DNA of 30,412 nt, taken from NCBI GenBank assembly GCA_038238625.1, contig JBBSFP010000001.1, positions 1-30,412 on the forward strand, read 5' to 3'. The stretch comes from Tepidisphaerales bacterium. GTDB taxonomy: Bacteria; Planctomycetota; Phycisphaerae; Tepidisphaerales; Tepidisphaeraceae. Position numbers and translations under genes: made by a program. Within the stretch, counting starts at the first letter, position 1. Each line of letters starts with the position of its first letter. Shown here one piece after another: positions 10,913 through 24,075 of the stretch. The notes below the pieces were generated by a model that searched no databases, had not been told where the DNA came from, and worked only from the letters and a program-made list of their open reading frames with translations.

Positions 10913-12679
10913 ATGAACACGCTCGCCAGCACCCTTACATCCGTTGCCGCCTCAGTTGAGGAATATGACCAGTTCGTTACCGGGCAGGTGGAGCGCGCGC
11001 GCAGCGATGAGGGGTTTGCGCACAAAACCCGGGAAAAGTGGGAATCGATTAAAAGTGCCATCCCCATGACCACCACGCCAACGGGAATCAAGCTACCGCG
11101 GCTGGCGCTCCCGCAGGTGGACGAGCCGGGAGAAATGGCGCGCTACCTCTATAGCGAGGGACTACCAGGCGAATTTCCCTATGTAAATGGCATCTATCGC
11201 GAAATGTACCTCGCCAAAGACCTTGGCGAAGTGGTAGCCGAAGAGCCGACCCGTCTTTTTGCGGGTCTGGGATTGGCCGAAGACACCAACGCCCGCTTCC
11301 ACTATCTGACCCGGCAACAGCGCAGCCTTCGCCTGAGCACCGCCTTTGATGGACCCACTCTCTACGGCGTGGACAGCGATACCCCCGGCGTACTGGGCAA
11401 GATCGGCGAGGGGGGTGTTGCCATCGACACTATTGACGATATGGAACGGCTCTACGAGGGATTCCCGTTCGGCGATAGTAACTTCTCGGTGTCCATGACC
11501 ATGAACGGTCCAGCACCGATCATCCTGGCGATGTACGTCTCCGCCGCGCGGCGCAAGTACGGTAAAGAGATCATCCCCAAGCTGCGCGGAACCATCCAGG
11601 CTGACATCCTCAAAGAAGTGCAGGCACAGAATGAAATGATCTTTCCGGTCGATGCATCATTGCGGTTCCTGGGGGACATGGTGGAGTATGCCACCGAATT
11701 TATGCCGCGCTGGTACCCGATTTCCATCAGCGGTTATCACATAGCCGAAGCGGGCGCGACCCCTGTACAGCAGGCTGCCTACACCCTCTCAAACGGGTTC
11801 ACCTATGTGCAGCTTTTTAAAGAGCGCGGCATGGATGTAAACGTGTTTGGCCCGCGGCTCTCGTTTTTCCTCGACGGTGGGCTCGACGTGGAATATTACG
11901 CCCTGGCGTCGGTGTGCCGGCGCATCTGGGCCATCGGAATGCGCGATGTGTTCGGCGCAAGCCCCAAAGCGCAGATGTTCAAGCTGCACATCCAAACCAG
12001 CGGCCGCTCGCTCATCGCCCACGAGTTCCAGAACAATCTAACCCGTACCGCCATCGAACTCATGATGGCGTACAACAATCACACCAACTCCTGCCACTCC
12101 AACAGTGCCGATGAGCCGTTTACCACGCCCAGCGAGCAATATGTGCGTCTCGCCGCCCATGCGCAGGCCATCATGCTCGAAGAGAGCGGCCTCTTTAAAC
12201 ACATGATGAACACCACCAGCGGATCGCCGGGGATGAAAATCATCGAGAAGGCCGTGCAGGATGCGATCATCGAAGAGTTCCGCGAGATTGATCGGCTGGG
12301 TGGAGTGCTGTCGGCCATTGAGCACCGCTACCAGCGCAGCCAAATTCAAAATGCCGCGCATCGCTACGAGCAACAGATTTACGCTGGTGTAAGGCCGATC
12401 ATTGCCCTCAACCGTTACGCCGCCATGGGCGAGGGAACATCAGACCTGCCGGTGGTACGTACGGACCCAGCCAAGCAGCATCAGCAAGTCGGACGGCTGG
12501 CGGAATTTAAAAAGCGACACGCCCCCCATGCCCAAAAGGCGCTCGATGAGCTCACGCGCGTGGTAGAAACCGGCGGTAATGTCTTCGCGCAGCTGATCGA
12601 AACTGTCGAACATTGCTCGCTCGGCCAAATCATCGACCGCCTCAGCGCGATCGTCGGTCGTTTCCGTCCAACCGTCTAA
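10913..12679 (+). CDS. Acyl-CoA mutase substrate-binding subunit, IcmF / isobutyryl-CoA mutase type
   Basis: PGEFPYVNG, EEPTRLFAG, RLSTAFDGPTLYG, GTIQADILKEVQAQN, SISGYHIAEAGA, RLSFF, HIQTSGRSL; Phe/Gln rather than Tyr/Arg at the specificity positions. Confidence 0.9.
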   Translation: MNTLASTLTSVAASVEEYDQFVTGQVERARSDEGFAHKTREKWESIKSAIPMTTTPTGIKLPRLALPQVDEPGEMARYLYSEGLPGEFPYVNGIYREMYLAKDLGEVVAEEPTRLFAGLGLAEDTNARFHYLTRQQRSLRLSTAFDGPTLYGVDSDTPGVLGKIGEGGVAIDTIDDMERLYEGFPFGDSNFSVSMTMNGPAPIILAMYVSAARRKYGKEIIPKLRGTIQADILKEVQAQNEMIFPVDASLRFLGDMVEYATEFMPRWYPISISGYHIAEAGATPVQQAAYTLSNGFTYVQLFKERGMDVNVFGPRLSFFLDGGLDVEYYALASVCRRIWAIGMRDVFGASPKAQMFKLHIQTSGRSLIAHEFQNNLTRTAIELMMAYNNHTNSCHSNSADEPFTTPSEQYVRLAAHAQAIMLEESGLFKHMMNTTSGSPGMKIIEKAVQDAIIEEFREIDRLGGVLSAIEHRYQRSQIQNAAHRYEQQIYAGVRPIIALNRYAAMGEGTSDLPVVRTDPAKQHQQVGRLAEFKKRHAPHAQKALDELTRVVETGGNVFAQLIETVEHCSLGQIIDRLSAIVGRFRPTV

Positions 12680-12720
12680 GATCATCCGGCGTCGGCAACG
12701 TCGAATACCCAAGGCTCCGC

Positions 12721-14175
12721 ATGACCCCCACCGTCGTTACCGGTACCCCAACTGCCGCGCAGCAGCGTGTCGCGCATCCCCTGGCCGACCGTTTGGCCGC
12801 CTACACCCACTCCCTGAAGTTCGAGGACCTGCCCAAGGCAGTCGTGCATGAAGTGAAGCGGCGCGTGATCGATTCCATTGGCTGCGCCCTGGGTTCGTGG
12901 ACGGCCGAGCCGTGCGTGATTGCACGAAAGGTAGCTTCTGAACTCAGCGCCCAGCACGGTGCTACTTTGTGGGGAACCGATCACCGCGCACCTCTGGATT
13001 GGGCCGCATTTGCCAACGGTTTGCTGGTGCGCTATCTGGATTACAACGATACCTATTTGTCGAAAGAACCCGCCCATCCCAGCGACAATATTCCCGCCGC
13101 CATCGCTGTGGCGGAGGCATACAGGGTTAATGGGCGCGAGCTGATCACCGCCATTGCCCTTGCGTATGAAGTCCAGTGCCGCTTTTGTGATGCCGTGAGC
13201 CTGCGGGCACGCGGCTGGGATCATGTGACCTACGGCGCTTTTTCCACCGCCGTGGCGGCGTCCCGTTTGATGAAACTGGATGTCGCAGGCACTCGTCATG
13301 CTATCGGCATCGCCGGTGTCACAAGCGCTGCGTTGCGGCAGTCGCGCGTCGGTGAACTTTCCCACTGGAAAGGTGCCGCTTTTGCCAATTCGGCTCGACA
13401 TGGCGTGTATGCCGCAATGCTGGCGCGCGAAGGCATGACCGGTCCGGCCCCCATCTTTGAAGGCGAGAAGGGGTTTGAAAAACTGGTCAGCGGTGCCGCG
13501 ATGGAAGTCGCCGGTCCATTTGCGCTGCAGTCATCCGACCAAAAACTCCCGCCGCGCGCTCCCGAAGATGGGTTCATGATCCTCAAGACGCTCATCAAAT
13601 TCTGGCCGGCTGAATACCATGCCCAGAGCGCGGTGGAAGCGGCGATGCGCCTTCGGCCTAAGCTTGACGGGGCCGAGAATATCGAAACCGTCATCATCGA
13701 AAGCCACGATGCGGCCGTGGATATCATTGGCAGCGAATCTGAAAAATGGCGGCCCACCCATCGTGAAACCGCCGATCACAGCCTGCCTTACATGGTGGGT
13801 GTGGCGCTGGTGGATGGGGAATTAACTCAGCGGCAGTTCACGCATGAACGTTTGTCGGATGAAAAACTCCTGAGCTTTTTGCAGCGGGTCGAAGTTCGCC
13901 GCAATGCAGAGCTAACCGCCCTCTATCCCGACGCCGTCGCCAACAAGGTCACCATTAAACTCAAAGGCGGTCGCAGCATCAGCGAGCGCATAGATTACCC
14001 GAAGGGGCACGCTAAAAACGCTTTGTCTGATGGTGAGGTGGAAGCCAAATTTCATGCGCAGGCTGATGAAGTCCTAGGAGCGCAGCGCTCCGATGCCGTT
14101 CTCAAATGGGCATGGCAACTTGAGGAAACCGCTAATCCGGCCGATTTGTTGACGCTTCTGAAGATACAAGGTTAA
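12721..14175 (+). CDS. prpD: 2-methylcitrate dehydratase (MmgE/PrpD family)
   Basis: VRYLDYNDTYLSKEPAHPSDN, GWDHVT, RVGELSHWKG, AEYHAQSA, ETADHSLPY. Start placed at ATG 12721 because the ORF-track start 12613 overlaps the mutase. Confidence 0.92.
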   Translation: MTPTVVTGTPTAAQQRVAHPLADRLAAYTHSLKFEDLPKAVVHEVKRRVIDSIGCALGSWTAEPCVIARKVASELSAQHGATLWGTDHRAPLDWAAFANGLLVRYLDYNDTYLSKEPAHPSDNIPAAIAVAEAYRVNGRELITAIALAYEVQCRFCDAVSLRARGWDHVTYGAFSTAVAASRLMKLDVAGTRHAIGIAGVTSAALRQSRVGELSHWKGAAFANSARHGVYAAMLAREGMTGPAPIFEGEKGFEKLVSGAAMEVAGPFALQSSDQKLPPRAPEDGFMILKTLIKFWPAEYHAQSAVEAAMRLRPKLDGAENIETVIIESHDAAVDIIGSESEKWRPTHRETADHSLPYMVGVALVDGELTQRQFTHERLSDEKLLSFLQRVEVRRNAELTALYPDAVANKVTIKLKGGRSISERIDYPKGHAKNALSDGEVEAKFHAQADEVLGAQRSDAVLKWAWQLEETANPADLLTLLKIQG

Positions 14176-14180
14176 AGTTC

Positions 14181-15044
14181 GTGGCACCTATCGAATTGCA
14201 CAGCAAACCCGCACGCCTGCGCCAGCTTCTCGAAGCGGGTTGCGTTGCCATGCCGGGCGCATTCAATGGCGCTTCGGCTCGGCTGGTGCAGCGTGCCGGA
14301 TTCGATGCCGTTTACATCTCCGGCGCGGGCTTAGCCAACGCCACAGCGGGTCTGCCTGACATCGGCCTGCTGACGCTCAGTGAGGTGACATTGCTGGCAC
14401 GGTTTGCCGCGTCGGCGGTTGATATCCCGGCGATTGTAGATGCTGATACCGGGTTCGGGGGCCCCGAAAACGCTGCCCGCACCGTGCGGGATCTCACCCA
14501 TGCCGGGCTGGCGGGATGTCATATTGAAGATCAGGAATTCCCCAAGCGCTGTGGGCATCTGGGAGGAAAGACGCTGGTTTCGACCGAGGATATGTGCGCC
14601 AAGCTGCGCGCTGCAGCCACGGCCAAGCCCGACCGGGATTTTCTGCTGATCGCGCGAACTGATGCCCGCGCCGTGGAGGGATTCGACGCCGCCGTGGCCC
14701 GTGCCCATGCATACCTGCACGCAGGGGCCGATGCAATTTTTCCCGAGGCCCTGCAAACCGCCGAAGAATTTTTCGCCTTCGCCAAGGCAATATCAGCGCC
14801 GTTGCTGGCGAACATGACTGAATTTGGCCGTAGCCCGCTGTTGAGCGTCAGTCAACTGGCGGAAATGGGCTACCGGATGGTGATTTTTCCGCAAACCGCT
14901 TTCCGTGTCAGCATGCGTGCAGCGGATGAATTACTTAAAGACCTGCGAATCGCCGGCACGCAGGAACAGTGGCTCAGCCGCATGCAGACGCGGCAGGACT
15001 TGTACAATCTACTGGGATACGATCCCACGATGAATTCCCGCTGA
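14181..15044 (+). CDS. prpB: Methylisocitrate lyase
   Basis: YISGAG, DADTGFG, HIEDQEFPKRCGHLGGK, IARTDA, ADAIFPEAL, LLANMTEFG; GTG start 5 nt after prpD. Confidence 0.93.
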   Translation: MAPIELHSKPARLRQLLEAGCVAMPGAFNGASARLVQRAGFDAVYISGAGLANATAGLPDIGLLTLSEVTLLARFAASAVDIPAIVDADTGFGGPENAARTVRDLTHAGLAGCHIEDQEFPKRCGHLGGKTLVSTEDMCAKLRAAATAKPDRDFLLIARTDARAVEGFDAAVARAHAYLHAGADAIFPEALQTAEEFFAFAKAISAPLLANMTEFGRSPLLSVSQLAEMGYRMVIFPQTAFRVSMRAADELLKDLRIAGTQEQWLSRMQTRQDLYNLLGYDPTMNSR

Positions 15045-15124
15045 CGCTTGCCAATTCGCATAAGAATCGCTCAAATGCCCAGCCCTCTCGTGGTGCGAGA
15101 ACTCAACAACTTTGAGGAGTGTTT

Positions 15125-16291
15125 ATGACGCAGGCATCCCCCACCGCTACCAAAACCGGCGATAACGCGACCGGTAATAAACCCAACTTTAGCCCTGGCT
15201 TGGCCGGGGTGATTGCCGGGGAATCCAGTATTTGCCTGGTCGATCCGGATCGCGGGCTCTTTTATCGCGGGTATGACGCCGGTGAATTAGCGACCAAATC
15301 CAATTTCGAGGAAGTGGCTTGGCTACTGATTCACGACGACCTGCCGACCGCTGCCGAATATGAAAAATTCAAATCTGAGTTAGCCACTGAGAGTAAGCTG
15401 CCTGGCCCGGTGGTGCAGGCCCTGCGACTGATGCCGCGCAACATGCATCCGATGGACATGCTGCGCACGGGTGTTTCGATGCTGGCGGCGTTTGATTCTG
15501 ACCTGAACGACGTGTCCCATGCCGCCAACGTGCGTAAGGCGGTTCGGCTGATCGCGCGTGTAGGCACGCTGGTGACCGATGGCTGGCGTATCCAGCAAGG
15601 GCAGGAACCGTTCACGCCCGCCAGCAAGATGGACTTCGCATCGCGCTTTCTGTTTGGCCTGACCGGACGTGAGCCGGAGCCATGGCGCGCCGCGGCCATT
15701 AATACGGTGTTGATCCTTTACGCCGAGCATGAATTCAACGCTTCCACATTCGCCGCGCGCGTGACTGCGTCCAGTCTCGCCGACATGTATGCCGGTATTA
15801 CCAGCGGGATTGGCACGCTCAAAGGCCCGTTGCACGGCGGAGCCAACGAAGAAGCGATGGCGATGCTCAACGACATCAAAGATGCCAGCCGCGCTGAATC
15901 CTGGGTGAAAGAGCGCCTGGTCCGCAAAGACAAAATCATGGGGTTTGGTCACCGCGTTTATAAGCAGGGTGATTCGCGCGTGCCCGCGATGCGGAATGTA
16001 TCGCGCGACCTGGCCACCCGCTTCAATCAGCCCGGGTTGGTGGATACCTGCATCGAGCTGGAAAAAATAATGGATCGAGAAAAAGGGCTGTGCGCCAACG
16101 TGGATCTTTACGCGGCACCGCTTTTCCACCTCCTGCAGATCGCGCCGGAGCTCAATACACCCATTTTTGCCGCCGGTCGAGTGGCTGGTTGGTGCGCCCA
16201 TGTGATCGAGCAGCATGACAATAACCGCATCCTGCGGCCGCGCTGCTGGTACAACGGTTCCGAGCCACGCCCCTATCACAAACCGGCATGA
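15125..16291 (+). CDS. prpC: 2-methylcitrate synthase (citrate synthase family)
   Basis: GLAGVIAGES, LFYRGY, YAEHEFNASTF, LKGPLHGGANE, IMGFGHRVYK, NVDLY, RVAGWCAH; context with prpD/prpB; GAGGAG SD. Confidence 0.88.
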   Translation: MTQASPTATKTGDNATGNKPNFSPGLAGVIAGESSICLVDPDRGLFYRGYDAGELATKSNFEEVAWLLIHDDLPTAAEYEKFKSELATESKLPGPVVQALRLMPRNMHPMDMLRTGVSMLAAFDSDLNDVSHAANVRKAVRLIARVGTLVTDGWRIQQGQEPFTPASKMDFASRFLFGLTGREPEPWRAAAINTVLILYAEHEFNASTFAARVTASSLADMYAGITSGIGTLKGPLHGGANEEAMAMLNDIKDASRAESWVKERLVRKDKIMGFGHRVYKQGDSRVPAMRNVSRDLATRFNQPGLVDTCIELEKIMDREKGLCANVDLYAAPLFHLLQIAPELNTPIFAAGRVAGWCAHVIEQHDNNRILRPRCWYNGSEPRPYHKPA

Positions 16292-16330: not shown

Positions 16331-17086
16331 ATGTTCCGCCTCACGCGACAGGTGCGTTTTGCAGTGAACGGCCTCAATGTGCCGAGCCCCGATGATCACG
16401 TTAATGGATACGCGGGGTTCCCAACGTTGACCCCCTGGGGAATCTACCTTGGGCTTGATGTCACGCTTGCGGGAAACCTGGAATCGACAAGCGGGTACCT
16501 GCGCAATATCCGTGATGTGGACCAGGCGGTGCGGCACCGGGCGCTGCCGATTGTCCGCGAGCTCATTTCGATGAACGCATCGCCCGAAACCGTGCTGCGA
16601 AAACTATCCGATGAGCTGCGCCCCGCCTGGCCTATCGGCATGTTGCAGCACCTGCGACTGCACCTGAGCCCATTCATTCAACTTGGCCTGCAACTCTCGG
16701 AGCCGAGCATGATTCATCTCAGCCAGAAGTTCGAGTTTTCGGCCAGTCATCGGCTGCATAACCCCGCGCTCAGCGATGCGGAGAACCTGCGGGTATATGG
16801 CAAATGCAACAACTGCAACGGGCATGGGCATAATTACGAACTTCAGGTCACATTGGCCGGGCCGCTGAGCGAGTTGCCGATGTTCGAGCGTATCGTCGCC
16901 GAGACGGTTATTGATCGCTTCGATCACAAAAATCTGAACGTTGAGGTGCCAGAATTTCGAACGCTGATTCCATCCGTGGAGAACATTGCGCAGGTGATTT
17001 ATCGGCTTTTGAAACCGGCGCTGGTGGGGCTGACATCGGTCACGGTCTGGGAAACACCCAAGACCTGGTGCGAATATTCAGAGTAA
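16331..17086 (+). CDS. Two-domain 6-pyruvoyl-tetrahydropterin / 6-carboxytetrahydropterin synthase family protein (QueD-like T-fold)
   Basis: C-terminal half FSASHRL...KCNNCNGHGHNY...DHKNLN...PSVENIA...VWETP; the N-terminal half looks like a second, degenerate T-fold domain. Confidence 0.85.
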   Translation: MFRLTRQVRFAVNGLNVPSPDDHVNGYAGFPTLTPWGIYLGLDVTLAGNLESTSGYLRNIRDVDQAVRHRALPIVRELISMNASPETVLRKLSDELRPAWPIGMLQHLRLHLSPFIQLGLQLSEPSMIHLSQKFEFSASHRLHNPALSDAENLRVYGKCNNCNGHGHNYELQVTLAGPLSELPMFERIVAETVIDRFDHKNLNVEVPEFRTLIPSVENIAQVIYRLLKPALVGLTSVTVWETPKTWCEYSE

Positions 17087-17951: not shown

Positions 17952-18070
17952 CAAACGAGATTCTAAGAGGGATTTTCAGCCAGAACACCTGATGCGTCAG
18001 AATAGCCTCTGACATCGCCTTGGTGAAACTTCGCTCGCGGATACAATCCCTCGCCAAGGAGCTAACCGAT

Positions 18071-19153
18071 ATGCGTGCGATTGTGACTGGACAAGTGGGT
18101 GTCGAAAAAGCGCCTTATCTGGAAGAGGCGCGGATTTTGGCGGAGCAGAACGGGCACGACCTGCTGGTTTGCCATGTCGGGCAGATGATGTACGCCGAGG
18201 CACTGGATGTGCCACCCGGGCGGATCCTGAATCTTCCGATGTCACGGCTCAACAGCTTGCGGCGCGCGGTGTTTAAAGAAATCCTGCGGCTGGCGGAAAG
18301 ACACGAGCATGTGCTGGTCAACACCCATGCCACATTTCGTTGGAGGCACGGACTTTTTCCGGCCTTTGATTTCGACCAGATCAAGGCGTTCGGTGCGGAT
18401 TTATACGTAACCCTTCTGGACAATGCTGAAAGCGTGCACCAGCGATTGCTCGCTGATCATGATATTGACCATACGCTCAAAGACATCATGGTGTGGCGTG
18501 AAGAAGAGCTGCTGGCGACCGAAATTATCGCCAACATAGCCCGGGGGTACGGATCATTTTTCATGGTGAGCCGGGGTCGCAACGTATTGACGGCGGCAAC
18601 GATTTATCGGCTCATGTTCGAGAAGAATCGACCCAAGGCCTACCTCTCGTTTCCGATGAGCCATGTGATGGATTTGCCGGACACCCTGGAAGAAATCGAG
18701 CAATTCAAAAAGGTGATGAACGAGCACCTGATTTGTTTTGACCCGGCCGACGTGGACGAGTTTGTGCTGCACACCAAGGCCGTCAGGGCCATGGAAGAAG
18801 GCCGCGCGACCATTGAGGTGCAGGCCGTGAATGGTCCGCTGATTTTAAAGACATCCGATGTGGCCCAGATCAGCGGCGACATCATGGGGCAAATTTACGC
18901 CCGGGATTTCAAAATGGTCGACCAGAGTGACATGATCGTCAGCCTGGTCCCTGAACTGCCCAATGGCAAACCGGGCTTGTCCAGCGGCGTCGAGCGCGAG
19001 CTTCACCATGCGTACGAGGGCGGCAAAGAAGTGTACGTAATCTGGGCGTGTCGGGGGTTACCGTCCCCTTTCATCACCGAGACTGCAACGCGCGTTTTCA
19101 AGAACGTTCAGGAGGCGGTGGCACATTTCAAGGTCAAAGGTTACGTGAAATAA
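18071..19153 (+). CDS. Fusion of an archaeal-type adenylate-kinase-like domain and a nucleoside 2-deoxyribosyltransferase (NDT)-like domain
   Basis: N-terminal VTGQVGVEK, NTHATFR and GLFPAF echo archaeal AdkA; C-terminal AYLSFPMS, CFDP, RDFKMVDQSD and SSGVERELHHA echo the NDT/N-glycosidase fold. AAGGAG SD supports ATG 18071; TACAAT at 18042-18047 is a possible -10 box. Confidence 0.72.
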   Translation: MRAIVTGQVGVEKAPYLEEARILAEQNGHDLLVCHVGQMMYAEALDVPPGRILNLPMSRLNSLRRAVFKEILRLAERHEHVLVNTHATFRWRHGLFPAFDFDQIKAFGADLYVTLLDNAESVHQRLLADHDIDHTLKDIMVWREEELLATEIIANIARGYGSFFMVSRGRNVLTAATIYRLMFEKNRPKAYLSFPMSHVMDLPDTLEEIEQFKKVMNEHLICFDPADVDEFVLHTKAVRAMEEGRATIEVQAVNGPLILKTSDVAQISGDIMGQIYARDFKMVDQSDMIVSLVPELPNGKPGLSSGVERELHHAYEGGKEVYVIWACRGLPSPFITETATRVFKNVQEAVAHFKVKGYVK

Positions 19154-19719
19154 TGGTGCGCGCGGTCACCGTTTACTGTTCATCCAGCAACAGGATTGCT
19201 GATTCGTATATGGAAGCTGGGCATCAACTCGGAAAGGCCATCGCTTCACAGGGCTGGACGCTGGTATACGGCGGAAACCATGTGGGTTTGATGGGGCAAG
19301 TAGCCGATGGGGCGCGGGCGGGCGGTGGAAAAGTGGTGGGGATTACGCCACAGGTGCTTGTCGATCATGGCTTGAGCGACCCGGCATGCGATGAGCTGGT
19401 GGTGACCCCCGGAATGCGCGAGCGGAAAGCGCTTTTAGAGGAACGAGGCGATGCATTCTTAGCACTGCCCGGCGGATTGGGAACGCTTGAGGAGATCTTC
19501 GAAATTATTGTGGGTAAGCAACTGGGATATCATCGAAAACCGATCGTGCTGCTTAATCTTGAGAGATATTATGAGCCGTTGCTGGCGATGATTGAGCATG
19601 GAATTGAACATCATTTTATAAAAACTGAATACCGGTCGCTTTATAGGGTTGCCGATTCGGTGGAAACGGCAATCAACCATCTCAGTGAAGTCGAATGTGA
19701 AAAACAGTCCCCGCACTAA
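19153..19719 (+). CDS. LOG family nucleotide monophosphate phosphoribohydrolase (TIGR00730-like Rossmann fold)
   Basis: VYCSSS, LVYGG..VGLMG, MRERK, PGGLGTLEE; TAATG one-base overlap with the upstream gene. Confidence 0.93.
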   Translation: MVRAVTVYCSSSNRIADSYMEAGHQLGKAIASQGWTLVYGGNHVGLMGQVADGARAGGGKVVGITPQVLVDHGLSDPACDELVVTPGMRERKALLEERGDAFLALPGGLGTLEEIFEIIVGKQLGYHRKPIVLLNLERYYEPLLAMIEHGIEHHFIKTEYRSLYRVADSVETAINHLSEVECEKQSPH

Positions 19720-19836: not shown

Positions 19837-21420
19837 ATGGGAAAACGAACTGATCTGACCCTCAACCTTGCGCTGGCAGCTTCGCTGGTGATCCACGGCG
19901 TGGCGGCCCTCTCCTATGACCGACTGCGAGCTACCCGTAGACAGGTCGCCAATGCGACGCCGACAAAAATGGGTGAGGCCCGCATCGAAAATGCAACGCC
20001 GCCAGAAACAAAACTGCCCACTTTGCCCCCGCTGATGGAGGCACCTCCCGAGGATGAGGACGAAGTTCGTTTTGGCGAAGAGGGAGGGCAAGGCGAAGCA
20101 TCAAGCAATACGCAGGGTGATCGAATGATGGAGGCGCCCAGGGCTGATGAGATGCAAGCATTCGAGGGGCAAGAAGCTTATGGGCGTGACCCGGTTTTGA
20201 ATTCACCGGGAACGGGCCGATTCAACGGCGATGGAGCAGGCGGGCGTGGCCGCGGTACCCCCGGCGCGGCTTCGGTGGCCGCGCCGGGTCGCGAGGGCGC
20301 GGCCGGTGGCAGCAAGGCTCCCCCGCCGCCGATTTTGGCACAAAAGACTGTCGGTCCAAGTCCCCTTCCAAGTCCGTTTGGTTTTCAACCACCGCCAGCA
20401 CCGTTGCCGCTGCCCAAACGTAAACTATCTTCGGATGTGATAGCGCACGGCCCCCAGGATAATACGGCCACCAGGACTCCGTCGGAGAATCAACTTGATC
20501 CTGAGTCAATAGACATGCCGTCCGACGGCGTTGACGAAGCGCCGGCGACAGCGCCCGTTGCTGAAGCGCTGGCATCCCCTGCCGCCACCCAACCCGCCGC
20601 TACACCCACGGCCAAGCCCAGCGATTCGCCATTGGCGACCACGATGCCGACCACCGGTCCGATGGATGAGCGTTATGCGGGACATATCTCCGCGACGCAG
20701 CCTTTCGATCCGGCGTTAGCGACGACCCATCCATCCGATCCGTCGGATGACACTGCAAATGCTACTTTCACGACACAACCGACGACGGCGCCGAATCTTT
20801 TGGTGTTGAGCTACGGCCCACCGACAACCTTGAAGGCGACGACCAAAACGGCGGTGGCTGAGATCGATCCGAAAATCACCCCGGCGGCCCGGGCCGTCGA
20901 TGGCGTGGCCGAGGGACGTGTGGATGGCCTGGGCGCGACAACATCGCCAGTGATCGATGCACAGGCCAACGAGACGCCCACGCCCAACGCGGTGTTGATG
21001 GCCAGTGCGTCACAGAGCACCGAAGGAGCCGCGCCGGGGGTGCCGCAGCGGCTGGCGGGTCAGAACCCGGGGAAGGAAAGCCAGAGCGAATCTGATGCTT
21101 TTTCGCATGAGCTGGTCTGGCGCGATGGCAAGGTGCTGGCACGCGATGGCATCAAGGTCAAATCCGTTCGACCACGGCTTACTGATGCGGAGGAGCTGGA
21201 TTTGATGAGTCTTGCCGACCCGCGCGTGAAGATCAAAGGAATCCACGATGCCAGCGGAAAAGTGATCGATGCCGTGATCGAAATCCCATCCGGGAGCAAT
21301 TCAGTGAACACCGCCTGCCTGTTGGCGGCATGGCATTGGGAGTTTTTTTTGGGTAACCAGAGCGGCAAAGGACAGCCGGGGAAGTGGTCGATCTGGTTTG
21401 AGTTCAGGCGACGAGGATAG
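19837..21420 (+). CDS. TonB-like protein: N-terminal membrane anchor, long Pro/Thr/Ala-rich linker, TonB C-terminal-like domain
   Basis: Hydrophobic LNLALAASLVIHGVAAL (SxxxH pattern); low-complexity middle; C-terminal ...DASGKV...IPSGSNSVNTACLLAAWHWEF...WFEF pattern resembling TonB_C. Confidence 0.65.
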   Translation: MGKRTDLTLNLALAASLVIHGVAALSYDRLRATRRQVANATPTKMGEARIENATPPETKLPTLPPLMEAPPEDEDEVRFGEEGGQGEASSNTQGDRMMEAPRADEMQAFEGQEAYGRDPVLNSPGTGRFNGDGAGGRGRGTPGAASVAAPGREGAAGGSKAPPPPILAQKTVGPSPLPSPFGFQPPPAPLPLPKRKLSSDVIAHGPQDNTATRTPSENQLDPESIDMPSDGVDEAPATAPVAEALASPAATQPAATPTAKPSDSPLATTMPTTGPMDERYAGHISATQPFDPALATTHPSDPSDDTANATFTTQPTTAPNLLVLSYGPPTTLKATTKTAVAEIDPKITPAARAVDGVAEGRVDGLGATTSPVIDAQANETPTPNAVLMASASQSTEGAAPGVPQRLAGQNPGKESQSESDAFSHELVWRDGKVLARDGIKVKSVRPRLTDAEELDLMSLADPRVKIKGIHDASGKVIDAVIEIPSGSNSVNTACLLAAWHWEFFLGNQSGKGQPGKWSIWFEFRRRG

Positions 21421-22090: not shown

Positions 22091-23272
22091 TTGAGTGATG
22101 TGTTAGATCAATCTGAAGTCGATGCCCTGCTGGCCGCTGTCGACAGTGGCAGCGTGGGGAATGATATCGGCAGTGGGGGCGGCGGGCGCGGAAGCTCATC
22201 CGGCGGGGGCGGCGGAAACTTTTCAGCTCATCTCGACGTTCACACCTATGATTTCAAACGTCCGGAGCGCGTCTCTAAAGATCAAATGCGCGCTCTCGAA
22301 GCGCTGCATGAGGGGTTCGGTCGAAATTTCGGAGCTGCCCTTTCCGGTTATCTGCGAACCATTGTCGAGGTGTCGGTGGCCAGCATCGTGCAGCTCACTT
22401 ACAGCGAATTTATTCATTCGTTGCCCAACCCGACATGCTTTAACCTTCTCAAAGCTGAGCAGTTGGACGGGCAACTTTGCCTGGAAATCAGTCCGCTGAT
22501 TATTTACCCGGTCATTGACCGTTTGCTTGGGGGATCGAATGCCGACCTTTTCATTCCGCAGCGCCCGCTGACGCAGATCGAACAGAGGCTGGTGCAGCGC
22601 ATTACCGACCGCGCGACCCAGCATCTATCGGAAGCCTGGAGCAATCTTACCCCTGTCAACTTCAGCGTGCAGGATTTCGAAAGCAACCCACAACTCGTGC
22701 AGATCGTGCCGCCGAACGAAACTGTGGTCGTGGTAGGGTTCGAGCTGAAGATGGGCAACCGGGCCGGGACGATGAGCTTGTGTATCCCCTACAACGTGAT
22801 CGAGCCGATCATGGGTGTTTTGTCGGCGCAGAACTGGGCAAGCTATCGCCGCAAGGGCGGGCAGGACGATCACCTGCGCAAGCTCACCGGGAACGTGCAA
22901 AACGCCGCTGTAGAGGTGCGAGCGTTTCTGGCGCGAACCACCATCAGTGTGAATGAGCTGCTCTCGCTGCACCCGGGGGATTTAATCACAACCGACAAAC
23001 TTTCCGATACCGATGTGCTTATCCAAGTGGAGGGCAAAAGCAAATTCCTCGGACAGATCGGGCAACTGCGCGGCAACCGAGCGATCCGCATCACACGTCA
23101 CTGCGCCCAGGCCCCCATGGAAATTAAGCCCGATGGCAATGAACCCACTCAAGCCGAGCTCGCAGAAGCCACCGTGGCAACCTCGTCGGCCGCGCAGGCG
23201 GCGATGACAAAAACTGCCCTCAGCACCGTCGCACAGGCCGTCGGTACCAAATTAACGGGAACCCGTAAATGA
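22091..23272 (+). CDS. fliM: Flagellar motor switch protein FliM
   Basis: N-terminal VLDQSEVDALL (CheY-binding helix), YDFKRPERVSKDQ, LHEGFGR, QLTYSEFI, RPLTQIE, ESNPQLVQIV and a C-terminal SpoA domain; TTG start. Confidence 0.95.
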   Translation: MSDVLDQSEVDALLAAVDSGSVGNDIGSGGGGRGSSSGGGGGNFSAHLDVHTYDFKRPERVSKDQMRALEALHEGFGRNFGAALSGYLRTIVEVSVASIVQLTYSEFIHSLPNPTCFNLLKAEQLDGQLCLEISPLIIYPVIDRLLGGSNADLFIPQRPLTQIEQRLVQRITDRATQHLSEAWSNLTPVNFSVQDFESNPQLVQIVPPNETVVVVGFELKMGNRAGTMSLCIPYNVIEPIMGVLSAQNWASYRRKGGQDDHLRKLTGNVQNAAVEVRAFLARTTISVNELLSLHPGDLITTDKLSDTDVLIQVEGKSKFLGQIGQLRGNRAIRITRHCAQAPMEIKPDGNEPTQAELAEATVATSSAAQAAMTKTALSTVAQAVGTKLTGTRK

Positions 23273-24075
23273 GCAGGACAGCCAATCCCCGGTCGGTCGT
23301 CCCTCGATCAGCCGGTGGCTCGACTCCATCCGGCATTTTGGGTTCTCCGTTATCCGCGGAGGGCGGGTACTTCCAACGATCTCAGCTGCCCCTTGCCTGC
23401 CTTTTCTTTCTGCTACCGTTCATGGCAATCTACGAAGTCGGCACGATCTCCATGCCACAAGGCCGAATCGTGGCCTCCATTTGGCTACAGAGCCTGTTCA
23501 AATATTTCGGTATCAGTGCGGCTACCGTCGCACATTTCCTACCCCCCCTGGCCTTGATGGCAGTGCTTCTCGCGTGGCATCTGGCCAGACGCGATCCATG
23601 GCGGCTTTCCCTCCGTGACGTTTTGGCAATGTATATAGAATGCTCGATATTAAGCCTGCCACTACTTGCACTGGCTGCTTGGAGGTTACCGTTTGCCCTA
23701 CCTGAGTCTGACCTTGCAAAACACGTCATAGCATCTGTGGGCGCAGGCATTTATGAGGAATTCGTCTTCCGGCTGATCCTCTATACGTTGTTAAGTATTT
23801 TTCTGGTCGACTTTCTAAAAATGGGCGAAGGGCGCGCCGTGCTACCCATTGTATGCCTATCTGCTGTTGGGTTCGCTTTATACCATTACCCGGGTCACGG
23901 TGTTCTGGTCGTTTCAACGTTTTTGTTCCGCGTGCTGGGTGGAATATATTTTGGGCTTCTCTTCGTAACGCGGGGATTTGGCATAACTGTAGGGGTGCAC
24001 GCTTGTTACGATTTAATGCTTTTACCCCTATCCGTTTTGCACCCTGCTGCGGGAGAATTATTTTCTCGTCAATGA
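23269..24075 (+). CDS. CPBP (Abi/CAAX) family intramembrane glutamic endopeptidase
   Basis: Several hydrophobic helices, GIYEEFVFR (EExxxR), FALYHY, HACYD; ATGA overlap with fliM. Confidence 0.85.
   Translation: MSRTANPRSVVPRSAGGSTPSGILGSPLSAEGGYFQRSQLPLACLFFLLPFMAIYEVGTISMPQGRIVASIWLQSLFKYFGISAATVAHFLPPLALMAVLLAWHLARRDPWRLSLRDVLAMYIECSILSLPLLALAAWRLPFALPESDLAKHVIASVGAGIYEEFVFRLILYTLLSIFLVDFLKMGEGRAVLPIVCLSAVGFALYHYPGHGVLVVSTFLFRVLGGIYFGLLFVTRGFGITVGVHACYDLMLLPLSVLHPAAGELFSRQ

What the first reader, a model, noticed from the sequence alone, without database searches (positions are those of the whole stretch)
18071..19719. Archaeal-type adenylate-kinase/NDT fusion translationally coupled to a LOG hydrolase: candidate nucleotide-processing module
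Seen: a 360-aa protein with an AdkA-like N-domain and an NDT-like C-domain retaining Tyr (AYLSFP, 18641), Asp (RDFKMVDQSD) and Glu (SSGVERE, 18998-19000); its stop overlaps the LOG start (TAATG). Known: NDT-fold enzymes (Rcl/DNPH1, MilB, BcmB) and LOG enzymes both cleave N-glycosidic bonds of NMPs, and AdkA-type kinases are mainly archaeal. Inference: a two-gene system that senses or phosphorylates a nucleotide and releases bases, for salvage of modified nucleotides, pool sanitation, signalling or possibly anti-phage nucleotide depletion. I know of no characterised protein with this architecture. The housekeeping neighbourhood favours metabolism over defence.
Basis: partly seen in the sequence, partly recalled or inferred. 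Interest (0 to 1): 0.75.

Follow-up and report, generated by a model that had tools for sequence, protein, structure and literature searches.

The report
Dead-kinase plus nucleotide-glycosidase fusion beside LOG
The gene is real and encodes an uncharacterised, very conserved enzyme: an archaeal-type adenylate-kinase-like domain that has lost its ATP/Mg motifs, fused to a DNPH1/deoxyribosyltransferase-like domain that keeps its catalytic residues. Its pairing with the LOG gene is only local gene order in one bacterial family, not a conserved two-gene system.

Summary
Window 18071-19150 (+) encodes a 360-aa protein. Residues 1-186 have the archaeal adenylate kinase (AdkA) fold and residues 184-360 have the nucleoside deoxyribosyltransferase/DNPH1 fold. 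Its TAA stop overlaps the ATG of a typical LOG (TIGR00730) gene at 19153-19719.

- **Kinase half.** It is degenerate across the whole family. Walker A reads GQVGVEKA, only 2 of 79 representatives keep GK[S/T], and the AdkA 'DTH' Asp is usually Asn. The genome has a normal bacterial Adk, so this half more likely binds a nucleotide than transfers phosphate.
- **C-terminal half.** It keeps D279, S304, G306 and E310, which align with DNPH1 Asp80, Ser98, Gly100 and Glu104, plus the invariant Tyr191. This points to an N-glycosidase acting on 5'-phosphorylated nucleotides.
- **Distribution.** The gene is mostly single-copy in 271 of 298 high-quality Phycisphaerae genomes. It was found in 0 of 191 other Planctomycetota and in 28 of 121 Thermoproteota, including Pyrobaculum aerophilum PAE2951.
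- **LOG linkage.** LOG lies downstream only in Tepidisphaeraceae-level relatives, in about half of them, with gaps from -4 to about 2000 nt. It was never nearby in more distant Phycisphaerae or in archaea.
- **Defence.** There is no defence signal.

This scan met the same family before on other genomes and read it the same way. The substrate remains unknown.

The parts
18071..19153 (+). Gene for the 360-aa two-domain protein (P0001), stop codon included
   Evidence: Open frame and translation. Orthologues are 72-82% identical in Tepidisphaeraceae and share start and length. AF2 model pLDDT 94.4, pTM 0.91.
18071..18628 (+). N-terminal domain (aa 1-186): archaeal adenylate-kinase fold with degenerate Walker A (GQVGVEKA, aa 7-14) and NTH instead of DTH (aa 84-86)
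   Evidence: Foldseek on PDB and Swiss-Prot: archaeal AdkA only at the top, TM by target 0.7-0.83. Profile A5 against 6ln3, E=1.1e-16. Motif tallies.
18620..19150 (+). C-terminal domain (aa 184-360): NDT/DNPH1 fold with Tyr191 (18641-18643), Asp279 (18905-18907), Ser304-x-Gly306 and Glu310 (18998-19000)
   Evidence: Model m372b6a511cb8, pLDDT 95. VIA Z 16.2 to 7o62, 12.1 to MilB, 11.2 to Rcl. Foldseek hits to NDT and DNPH1. Residue alignment to Rcl/DNPH1/NDT. Residue roles from PMC10483697.
19153..19719 (+). LOG-family gene (188 aa, P0002). Its ATG overlaps the upstream TAA by one base
   Evidence: TIGR00730 at 186 bits against a cut-off of 96; Pfam Lysine_decarbox 1.1e-39. The PGGLGTLEE and GGNHVGLMG motifs are visible.
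17955..18070 (.). 116-nt divergent intergenic region between rsmA/ksgA (minus strand) and the fusion gene, with AAGGAG 9 nt before the ATG
   Evidence: Sequence. RsmA assignment. The sigma-70 consensus scan found nothing here.

Best explanation
P0001 is a stand-alone housekeeping enzyme of an uncharacterised family. Its C-terminal NDT/DNPH1-fold domain is the catalytic part. Most likely it cleaves the N-glycosidic bond of a 5'-phosphorylated (deoxy)nucleotide by a DNPH1/Rcl-type double displacement, with Glu310 as nucleophile, tuned by Tyr191, Asp279 as acid/base, and Ser304/Gly306 holding the 5'-phosphate. The N-terminal domain descends from archaeal adenylate kinase but has lost the Mg-ATP transfer motifs. 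It probably acts as a nucleotide- or phosphate-binding regulatory or substrate-positioning module. Because AdkA is known as a trimer and NDT enzymes as dimers or hexamers, it may also act as an oligomerisation module. The downstream LOG gene is a second, independent NMP phosphoribohydrolase. In this genome and a subset of Tepidisphaeraceae it is co-transcribed and translationally coupled, plausibly because both feed nucleotide turnover or sanitation, but it is not an obligate partner. Shown: the folds, motif conservation, distribution and linkage pattern. Inferred: the chemistry, a phosphorylated substrate, the regulatory role of the N-domain and the oligomer.
For: Folds. Catalytic mapping: the profile alignment puts D279/S304/G306/E310 on Rcl and DNPH1 Asp80/Ser98/Gly100/Glu104, whose roles are described in PMC10483697. 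Conservation in 79 full-length representatives: Y191 78, D279 77, S304 71, G306 78 and E310 78, against canonical GK[S/T] in 2 and the DTH Asp in 12. Ser rather than the Asp I recall at this position in nucleoside-specific NDTs (own knowledge) fits a phosphate-bearing substrate. A normal bacterial Adk (PF00406, 93.7 bits) is elsewhere in the genome. The gene is near-universal and mostly single-copy in Phycisphaerae, 271 of 298 genomes, and 72-78% identical across genera where the adjacent LOG is 51-64%. That fits a constrained core function. Neighbours vary in 80 bacterial and 28 archaeal loci. LOG linkage is limited to one family.
Against: No activity data exist for any member. P0001 itself is below the Pfam NDT threshold (12-14 bits against 28.8), and sequence hits to PDB NDT/DNPH1 chains are individually non-significant (E 0.1-0.6). 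The Tyr191 equivalence rests on position in strand 1, not on a printed alignment. The P-loop keeps G7, G10 and mostly Lys/Arg13, so some phosphotransfer or ATP-dependent step is not excluded. Ribo versus deoxy specificity and base specificity are unknown. The tight overlap with LOG in several genomes could reflect a real functional tie in that lineage.
Confidence: 0.6

Rival explanations
1. One reading: the fusion senses or phosphorylates a nucleotide and works obligatorily with LOG to release bases.
For: TAATG overlap here. Overlaps or gaps of 1 nt or less in several other Tepidisphaeraceae loci (L021/L061, L064, L073, L076) and short gaps in about ten more. Both proteins belong to NMP N-glycosidase folds.
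Against: LOG is absent from the neighbourhood in about half of close relatives. Where present it is often separated by 0.2-2 kb, including inserted genes. It was found in 0 of 50 more distant Phycisphaerae loci. In complete genomes G001, G155 and G189 the LOG genes lie more than 270 kb away. No archaeal locus has LOG nearby. Two enzymes with the same chemistry do not form an obvious pathway.
Confidence: 0.1
2. An active bifunctional salvage enzyme, like the dNK-NDT or thymidylate-kinase-NDT fusions: the kinase half phosphorylates a nucleoside or NMP that the NDT half makes or consumes.
For: Independent kinase+NDT architectures exist in Actinomycetota, Pseudomonadota and phages. The P-loop keeps G7, G10 and Lys/Arg13. 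The residue before Lys is mostly D/N/G, which is compatible with loop geometry. Two family members keep GK[S/T].
Against: 77 of 79 representatives lack canonical GK[S/T], and the AdkA Asp of DTH is replaced in 67 of 79. The NCBIfam AdkA equivalog score is 24 bits against a cut-off of 155. The genome has its own Adk.
Confidence: 0.15
3. The C-domain is a transferase rather than a hydrolase: a natural phospho(deoxy)ribosyltransferase that swaps bases between nucleotides.
For: The best structural matches are true deoxyribosyltransferases (Z 16.2-13.2). The engineered phosphodeoxyribosyltransferase 4hx9 is among the sequence and fold hits. The catalytic set is shared by transferases and hydrolases.
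Against: No natural enzyme of this kind is known to me. The features separating hydrolases from transferases could not be assessed here.
Confidence: 0.1
4. An anti-phage nucleotide-depletion or signalling defence gene.
For: NDT/TIR/SLOG folds recur in defence systems. Weak structural similarity to TIR and ThsB (Z about 9-10).
Against: No PADLOC or PHROG hit for P0001. It is mostly single-copy and near-universal in a whole class, with very high conservation. Neighbours are housekeeping genes: methylcitrate cycle, rsmA, fliM. There are no mobile-element or defence-island features.
Confidence: 0.03

Closest known systems
DNPH1 / Rcl (2'-deoxynucleoside 5'-phosphate N-hydrolase; NDT superfamily, PF05014)
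   Same: Same fold. The aligned Asp, Ser-x-Gly and Glu match Asp80, Ser98, Gly100 and Glu104. There is an invariant Tyr in strand 1. Ser at the phosphate-binding position suggests a nucleotide rather than a nucleoside substrate.
   Different: Only about 14% identity, and below the Pfam threshold. A roughly 30-residue helix plus beta-hairpin insertion (aa 230-260) is present. It is fused to a 186-aa AdkA-like domain that DNPH1 lacks. Substrate unknown.
Nucleoside 2'-deoxyribosyltransferases (e.g. 7o62, 6evs, 1f8x)
   Same: Best structural matches, Z 13-16 over about 130 residues. Same Tyr/Asp/Glu catalytic set.
   Different: As I recall, NDTs carry Asp where this family has Ser304 and act on nucleosides (own knowledge). 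NDTs are single-domain proteins.
CMP/hmCMP N-glycosidases MilB / BcmB (4ohr, 4jen)
   Same: Best sequence-profile hit for the whole C-domain (4jen, E=0.06). Z 12.1 to MilB. The S-P-G...E motif aligns.
   Different: Those are antibiotic-pathway enzymes in biosynthetic clusters. This gene is a stand-alone core gene with an extra domain.
Archaeal adenylate kinase AdkA (COG2019; 6ln3, 1nks, 1ki9, 6pjw, 7owe)
   Same: Clear homology and fold for aa 1-186. The THA...GxxPG-like region and an Arg-rich helix are retained.
   Different: Walker A Gly-Lys-Ser/Thr and the DTH Asp are lost. It scores far below the NCBIfam equivalog cut-off. It is fused to an NDT domain. It is labelled 'adenylate kinase' by IMG and 'AAA family ATPase' by NCBI, and both labels are probably misleading.
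Other kinase-NDT fusions (dNK+NDT in Actinomycetota/Pseudomonadota; Thymidylate_kin or KTI12/AAA_33+NDT in phages)
   Same: Same general layout, a P-loop nucleotide kinase followed by an NDT domain.
   Different: They use different kinase families. They surfaced only as feature-similarity leads (scores 0.82-0.87) and were not examined further.
LOG / TIGR00730 phosphoribohydrolases (for the downstream gene)
   Same: P0002 passes TIGR00730 and Pfam PF03641 and carries the PGGxGTxxE motif.
   Different: It is below the cut-off of the cytokinin-LOG equivalog model (163 bits against 300), so the physiological substrate is open.

Membership tests
Archaeal adenylate kinase AdkA | AdkA fold and detectable homology | tested here: met
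   Foldseek TM by target 0.79-0.83, E about 1e-10. Profile against 6ln3, E=1.1e-16.
Archaeal adenylate kinase AdkA | Walker A GxPGxGK[S/T] | tested here: not met
   P0001 reads GQVGVEKA. Only 2 of 79 family representatives have GK[S/T].
Archaeal adenylate kinase AdkA | Asp of the DTH motif | tested here: not met
   Asn84 in P0001. Asp in only 12 of 79 representatives; alignment to AdkA.
Archaeal adenylate kinase AdkA | Passes the curated equivalog model (NF003122) | tested here: not met
   24.3 bits against a cut-off of 155.
Archaeal adenylate kinase AdkA | ATP:AMP phosphotransferase activity | not testable with these tools
   Needs an enzyme assay. The genome has a separate bacterial Adk.
NDT superfamily / DNPH1-Rcl-type N-glycosidase | NDT flavodoxin-like fold | tested here: met
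   VIA Z 16.2-11.2 to NDTs, MilB and Rcl. Foldseek E 2e-5 to 4e-4.
NDT superfamily / DNPH1-Rcl-type N-glycosidase | Passes Pfam PF05014 gathering score | tested here: not met
   12.2-13.9 bits against 28.8 for P0001. However, 38 of 49 relatives match at E<=0.1, the best at 4.8e-7.
NDT superfamily / DNPH1-Rcl-type N-glycosidase | Nucleophilic Glu (DNPH1 Glu104) | tested here: met
   E310 aligns with it and is present in 78 of 79 representatives.
NDT superfamily / DNPH1-Rcl-type N-glycosidase | Acid/base Asp (DNPH1 Asp80) | tested here: met
   D279 aligns with it and is present in 77 of 79.
NDT superfamily / DNPH1-Rcl-type N-glycosidase | Tyr hydrogen-bonded to the Glu (DNPH1 Tyr24) | tested here: inconclusive
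   Y191 sits at the end of strand 1 and is present in 78 of 79, but no residue-level alignment to Tyr24 was printed.
NDT superfamily / DNPH1-Rcl-type N-glycosidase | 5'-phosphate site (DNPH1 Ser98, Gly100; Ser128 of the partner subunit) | tested here: inconclusive
   S304 and G306 align with Ser98 and Gly100, present in 71 and 78 of 79. S332 (65 of 79) is only a positional candidate for Ser128.
NDT superfamily / DNPH1-Rcl-type N-glycosidase | N-glycosidic bond cleavage of (d)NMP | not testable with these tools
   Needs LC-MS assays.
LOG / TIGR00730 (downstream gene) | Curated model passed and PGGxGTxxE motif present | tested here: met
   186 bits against 96.35; PF03641 at 1.1e-39; PGGLGTLEE.
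Conserved fusion-LOG two-gene operon | Linkage kept across the family's range | tested here: not met
   Linkage is seen only in Tepidisphaeraceae-level loci, in about half, with gaps of -4 to 1969 nt. It was found in 0 of 50 distant Phycisphaerae loci and in none of 28 archaeal loci.
Known anti-phage defence systems | Match to a defence model, or a defence-island context | tested here: not met
   No PADLOC hit. Neighbours are housekeeping genes.

The most novel reading that the evidence does not exclude
The family is a new class of allosteric nucleotide-pool enzyme. It would be a hexamer built from AdkA-type trimer and NDT-type dimer contacts, in which a dead adenylate-kinase domain reads adenylate or (d)NTP status. 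That domain would gate an NDT-type active site that either destroys a specific damaged or modified (d)NMP or swaps bases between nucleotides as a natural phosphodeoxyribosyltransferase. It would have been inherited between Thermoproteota and the ancestor of Phycisphaerae.
Probability: 0.15. Interest if true: 0.7.

Novelty: new variant of a known kind. Interest (0 to 1): 0.45.

Why it matters
This is one of the most conserved 'hypothetical' proteins of the class Phycisphaerae. It is also present in cultured Thermoproteota (Pyrobaculum aerophilum PAE2951, and a Caldivirga maquilingensis protein, UniRef A8MBH9). Public databases call it 'adenylate kinase' or 'AAA ATPase', which is probably wrong.

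A defined activity would add a prokaryotic counterpart to the DNPH1-type nucleotide sanitation branch. It would also give an example of a kinase fold recycled as a sensor, and correct thousands of annotations. The prediction is directly testable with a simple enzyme screen.

Tried and rejected
- **Sole adenylate kinase?** Rejected. A normal PF00406 Adk is present in the genome.
- **Conserved partner genes.** ORF clustering of 80 Phycisphaerae loci with 6 kb flanks and of 28 archaeal or other loci with 4 kb flanks found no recurrent neighbour. The only exceptions were LOG plus a Pro-rich TonB-like gene in Tepidisphaeraceae and genus-level synteny in Pyrobaculum.
- **DNA-repair link.** The Caldivirga homologue overlaps an Endo_dU gene, and one Thermoproteota MAG homologue follows an EndoIII gene. 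Neither pairing recurs in other loci, so this stays a weak lead only.
- **N-terminal extension in G117 (717-aa open frame).** No domain was found; it is probably a spurious upstream open frame.
- **Defence.** PADLOC and PHROGs were negative for P0001.
- **Literature.** No paper was found on the architecture or on PAE2951/Q8ZU45/A8MBH9.
- **Expression.** Only one soil-metagenome DNA run holds the sequence and no RNA run does, so co-transcription could not be checked.
- **Direction of transfer.** An ML tree of 57 members has an unresolved backbone. Phycisphaerae plus some metagenomic sequences form one supported group, and the archaea fall into two or more groups. No direction can be claimed.
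- **Domain interface.** Model coordinates are not exposed to scripts, so the distance between the P-loop and the NDT site could not be measured.
- **Technical failure.** The first related-loci run, with the 49-sequence alignment, failed for lack of a conserved stretch. A 12-sequence alignment worked.
Full report
**1. What is in the sequence.**
Window 18071-19150 (+) is an uninterrupted 360-codon frame.
- It is preceded by AAGGAG 9 nt upstream of the ATG. A TTG at 18020 is possible, but orthologues begin at the same MRAIVTGQ and are also 360 aa.
- Its TAA (19151-19153) shares one base with the ATG (19153-19155) of a 188-aa gene that ends at 19719.
- The downstream protein is a standard LOG/TIGR00730 protein: 186 bits against a cut-off of 96, and PF03641 at 1.1e-39. 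It carries the PGGLGTLEE motif.

**2. Domain identities.**
Single-sequence searches are weak:
- AAA_17 at 2.7e-6.
- Nuc_deoxyrib_tr at E=0.2.
- The archaeal adenylate-kinase NCBIfam model at 24 bits against a cut-off of 155.
- PDB 6ln3 at E=0.003.

With an alignment of 49 relatives, AlphaFold2 gives a confident model (pLDDT 94.4, pTM 0.91).
- **Residues 1-186.** These match only archaeal adenylate kinases at the top of both PDB and Swiss-Prot fold searches (TM by target 0.7-0.83, E about 1e-10). A profile of the N-domains hits 6ln3 at E=1.1e-16, followed by 1ki9, 6pjw, 3h86, 1nks and 7owe.
- **C-domain folded alone (aa 184-360, pLDDT 95).** It matches nucleoside deoxyribosyltransferases at Z 16.2, 14.8 and 13.4, MilB at 12.1 and Rcl at 11.2. 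These stand clearly above the generic TIR, receiver and flavodoxin-like background at Z about 9-10. Foldseek adds DNPH1.
- **Family support.** 38 of 49 family members match Pfam PF05014 at E<=0.1, the best at 4.8e-7.

**3. Which half is catalytic.**
A profile of the C-domain core aligns with Rcl, DNPH1, NDT and the CMP N-glycosidase. D279, S304, G306 and E310 fall on DNPH1 Asp80, Ser98, Gly100 and Glu104 (the chain numbering offsets were worked out from the printed alignments).

According to PMC10483697:
- Glu104 is the proposed nucleophile.
- Tyr24 hydrogen-bonds it.
- Asp80 is the likely acid/base.
- Ser98 and Gly100, with Ser128 of the partner subunit, hold the 5'-phosphate.

I tallied 79 full-length representatives of 50%-identity clusters.

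| Feature | Present in (of 79) |
|---|---|
| Y191 | 78 |
| D279 | 77 |
| S304 | 71 |
| G306 | 78 |
| E310 | 78 |
| Canonical Walker A GK[S/T] | 2 |
| Gly before the Walker A Lys | 17 (otherwise D/N/E/S/R) |
| Asp of the AdkA DTH motif | 12 (Asn in 40) |

Other N-domain positions are strongly kept: R64 in 74, H86 in 75, R90 in 69, W91 in 72, W142 in 76, R143 in 76 and E146 in 77. The domain is therefore under selection, but not for Mg-ATP phosphotransfer.

The genome also encodes an ordinary bacterial Adk (PF00406, 93.7 bits).

My reading is that the NDT half is an active N-glycosidase on a 5'-phosphorylated nucleotide. The AdkA-like half would be a nucleotide- or phosphate-binding module that regulates it, positions the substrate or drives oligomerisation. 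The chemistry and the role of the N-domain are inferences.

**4. Distribution.**
- The 90%-cluster database holds more than 5,400 relatives. The nearest are 76-82% identical and come from Tepidisphaeraceae/Phycisphaerae MAGs.
- In genome surveys the gene is found in 271 of 298 high-quality Phycisphaerae genomes (206 of 224 genera). It is mostly single-copy, and a few whole families lack it.
- It was found in 0 of 191 other Planctomycetota sampled.
- The same two-domain protein occurs in Thermoprotei, Bathyarchaeota, Aigarchaeota and Nitrososphaeria, and in 28 of 121 sampled genomes of that archaeal phylum.
- Cultured organisms carry it too: PAE2951 of Pyrobaculum aerophilum and a Caldivirga maquilingensis protein, both annotated as hypothetical.
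- No paper mentions these proteins or the architecture.
- An ML tree groups Phycisphaerae with some metagenomic sequences (support 100/96). The archaea fall into at least two groups and the backbone is unresolved, so no transfer direction can be stated.

**5. The LOG linkage.**
I searched 65 loci at 66% identity or more (some are duplicates from two tools) and 55 loci at 61% or less for LOG downstream.
- Among close relatives with at least 700 nt of downstream sequence, roughly half carry LOG on the same strand.
- The gaps range from -4 or -1 nt (overlaps, as here) through 14-95 nt up to 0.2-2 kb with inserted genes.
- G215 and G223 have LOG about 2.4 kb downstream.
- None of the 50 more distant Phycisphaerae loci has LOG within the flank.
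- In complete genomes G001, G155 and G189 the LOG genes are more than 270 kb away.
- No archaeal locus has LOG nearby.
- De novo clustering of neighbours found no universal partner in 80 bacterial loci or in 28 archaeal or other loci.

The linkage is therefore not unique to this genome, but it is lineage-local synteny and not a conserved module. One of the counted loci (L019) comes from the unpublished genome G202. The conclusion does not depend on it.

The fusion is also more conserved than its LOG neighbour in the same genomes (72-78% against 51-64% identity).

**6. Context and defence.**
The window carries the following genes:
- prpD, prpB and prpC-like methylcitrate genes;
- a PTPS-domain protein;
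- rsmA, divergent from the fusion gene;
- the fusion gene and LOG;
- a Pro-rich protein with no Pfam hit;
- fliM.

PADLOC gives nothing for the three genes tested, and PHROGs gives nothing for the fusion. The consensus scan finds no sigma-70-like promoter or plus-strand terminator between the two genes, which fits co-transcription. Only one soil-metagenome DNA run holds the sequence, so expression could not be examined.

**7. Comparison with known systems.**
- The protein works most like DNPH1/Rcl or MilB-type nucleotide N-glycosidases, but it is not a member by curated thresholds and it has an extra domain.
- It descends from AdkA but fails the defining kinase motifs.
- Feature-similarity search shows that other kinase+NDT fusions exist: dNK+NDT in bacteria, and thymidylate-kinase or KTI12-like+NDT in phages. 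The layout is therefore recurrent, but those fusions use other kinase families.
- Earlier entries of this scan found the same family on other genomes. Two follow-ups reached the same reading. I re-derived each point independently here.
- This report adds the quantified LOG analysis, the family-wide motif tallies, the class- and phylum-level surveys and the cultured archaeal members.

**8. Verdict.**
This is a real, strongly conserved, uncharacterised enzyme family. It is most likely a regulated nucleotide N-glycosidase (confidence about 0.6). The 'two-gene module with LOG' and the defence readings are not supported. The substrate is unknown. Two isolated pairings with DNA base-damage enzymes (Endo_dU in Caldivirga, EndoIII in a Thermoproteota MAG) and the frequent proximity of LOG hint at damaged or modified nucleotide turnover, but these remain only leads.

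Noticed in passing
window 12613-16291: A methylcitrate-cycle cluster: a PrpD-like 2-methylcitrate dehydratase, a PEP-mutase/isocitrate-lyase family protein (PrpB-like) and a citrate synthase family protein (PrpC-like), all on the plus strand.
   Followed up: partly
window 16331-17086: A 251-aa protein whose PTPS (6-pyruvoyl-tetrahydropterin synthase/QueD) domain covers only residues 130-250. The N-terminal 125 residues have no Pfam match.
   Followed up: no
window 19837-21420: A 527-aa Pro/Ala/Thr-rich protein with no Pfam hit. It travels with LOG in Tepidisphaeraceae, and its orthologue in L043 has a weak TonB_C hit.
   Followed up: partly
L130:3412-5092 (Caldivirga maquilingensis): The archaeal homologue overlaps by 11 nt the start of an Endonuclease dU (PF01949) gene on the same strand. 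This pairing was not seen in the other archaeal loci.
   Followed up: partly
L126:4183-6080 (= L133, genome G606): A homologue lies 95 nt downstream of an endonuclease III (HhH-GPD) gene on the same strand. The same genome has a second, divergent paralogue on another contig.
   Followed up: partly
Public annotations of relatives: IMG names the family 'adenylate kinase' and NCBI names it 'AAA family ATPase'. Given the degenerate P-loop and the separate Adk in the genome, both names are probably misleading.
   Followed up: yes
ESM Atlas clusters: Independent kinase+NDT architectures turned up: dNK+Nuc_deoxyrib_tr in Actinomycetota and Pseudomonadota, and Thymidylate_kin or KTI12/AAA_33+Nuc_deoxyrib_tr in tailed phages.
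   Followed up: no
window 22091-24075: FliM (flagellar switch) is followed, with a start/stop overlap, by a CAAX-protease-like (Rce1-like) membrane protein.
   Followed up: no
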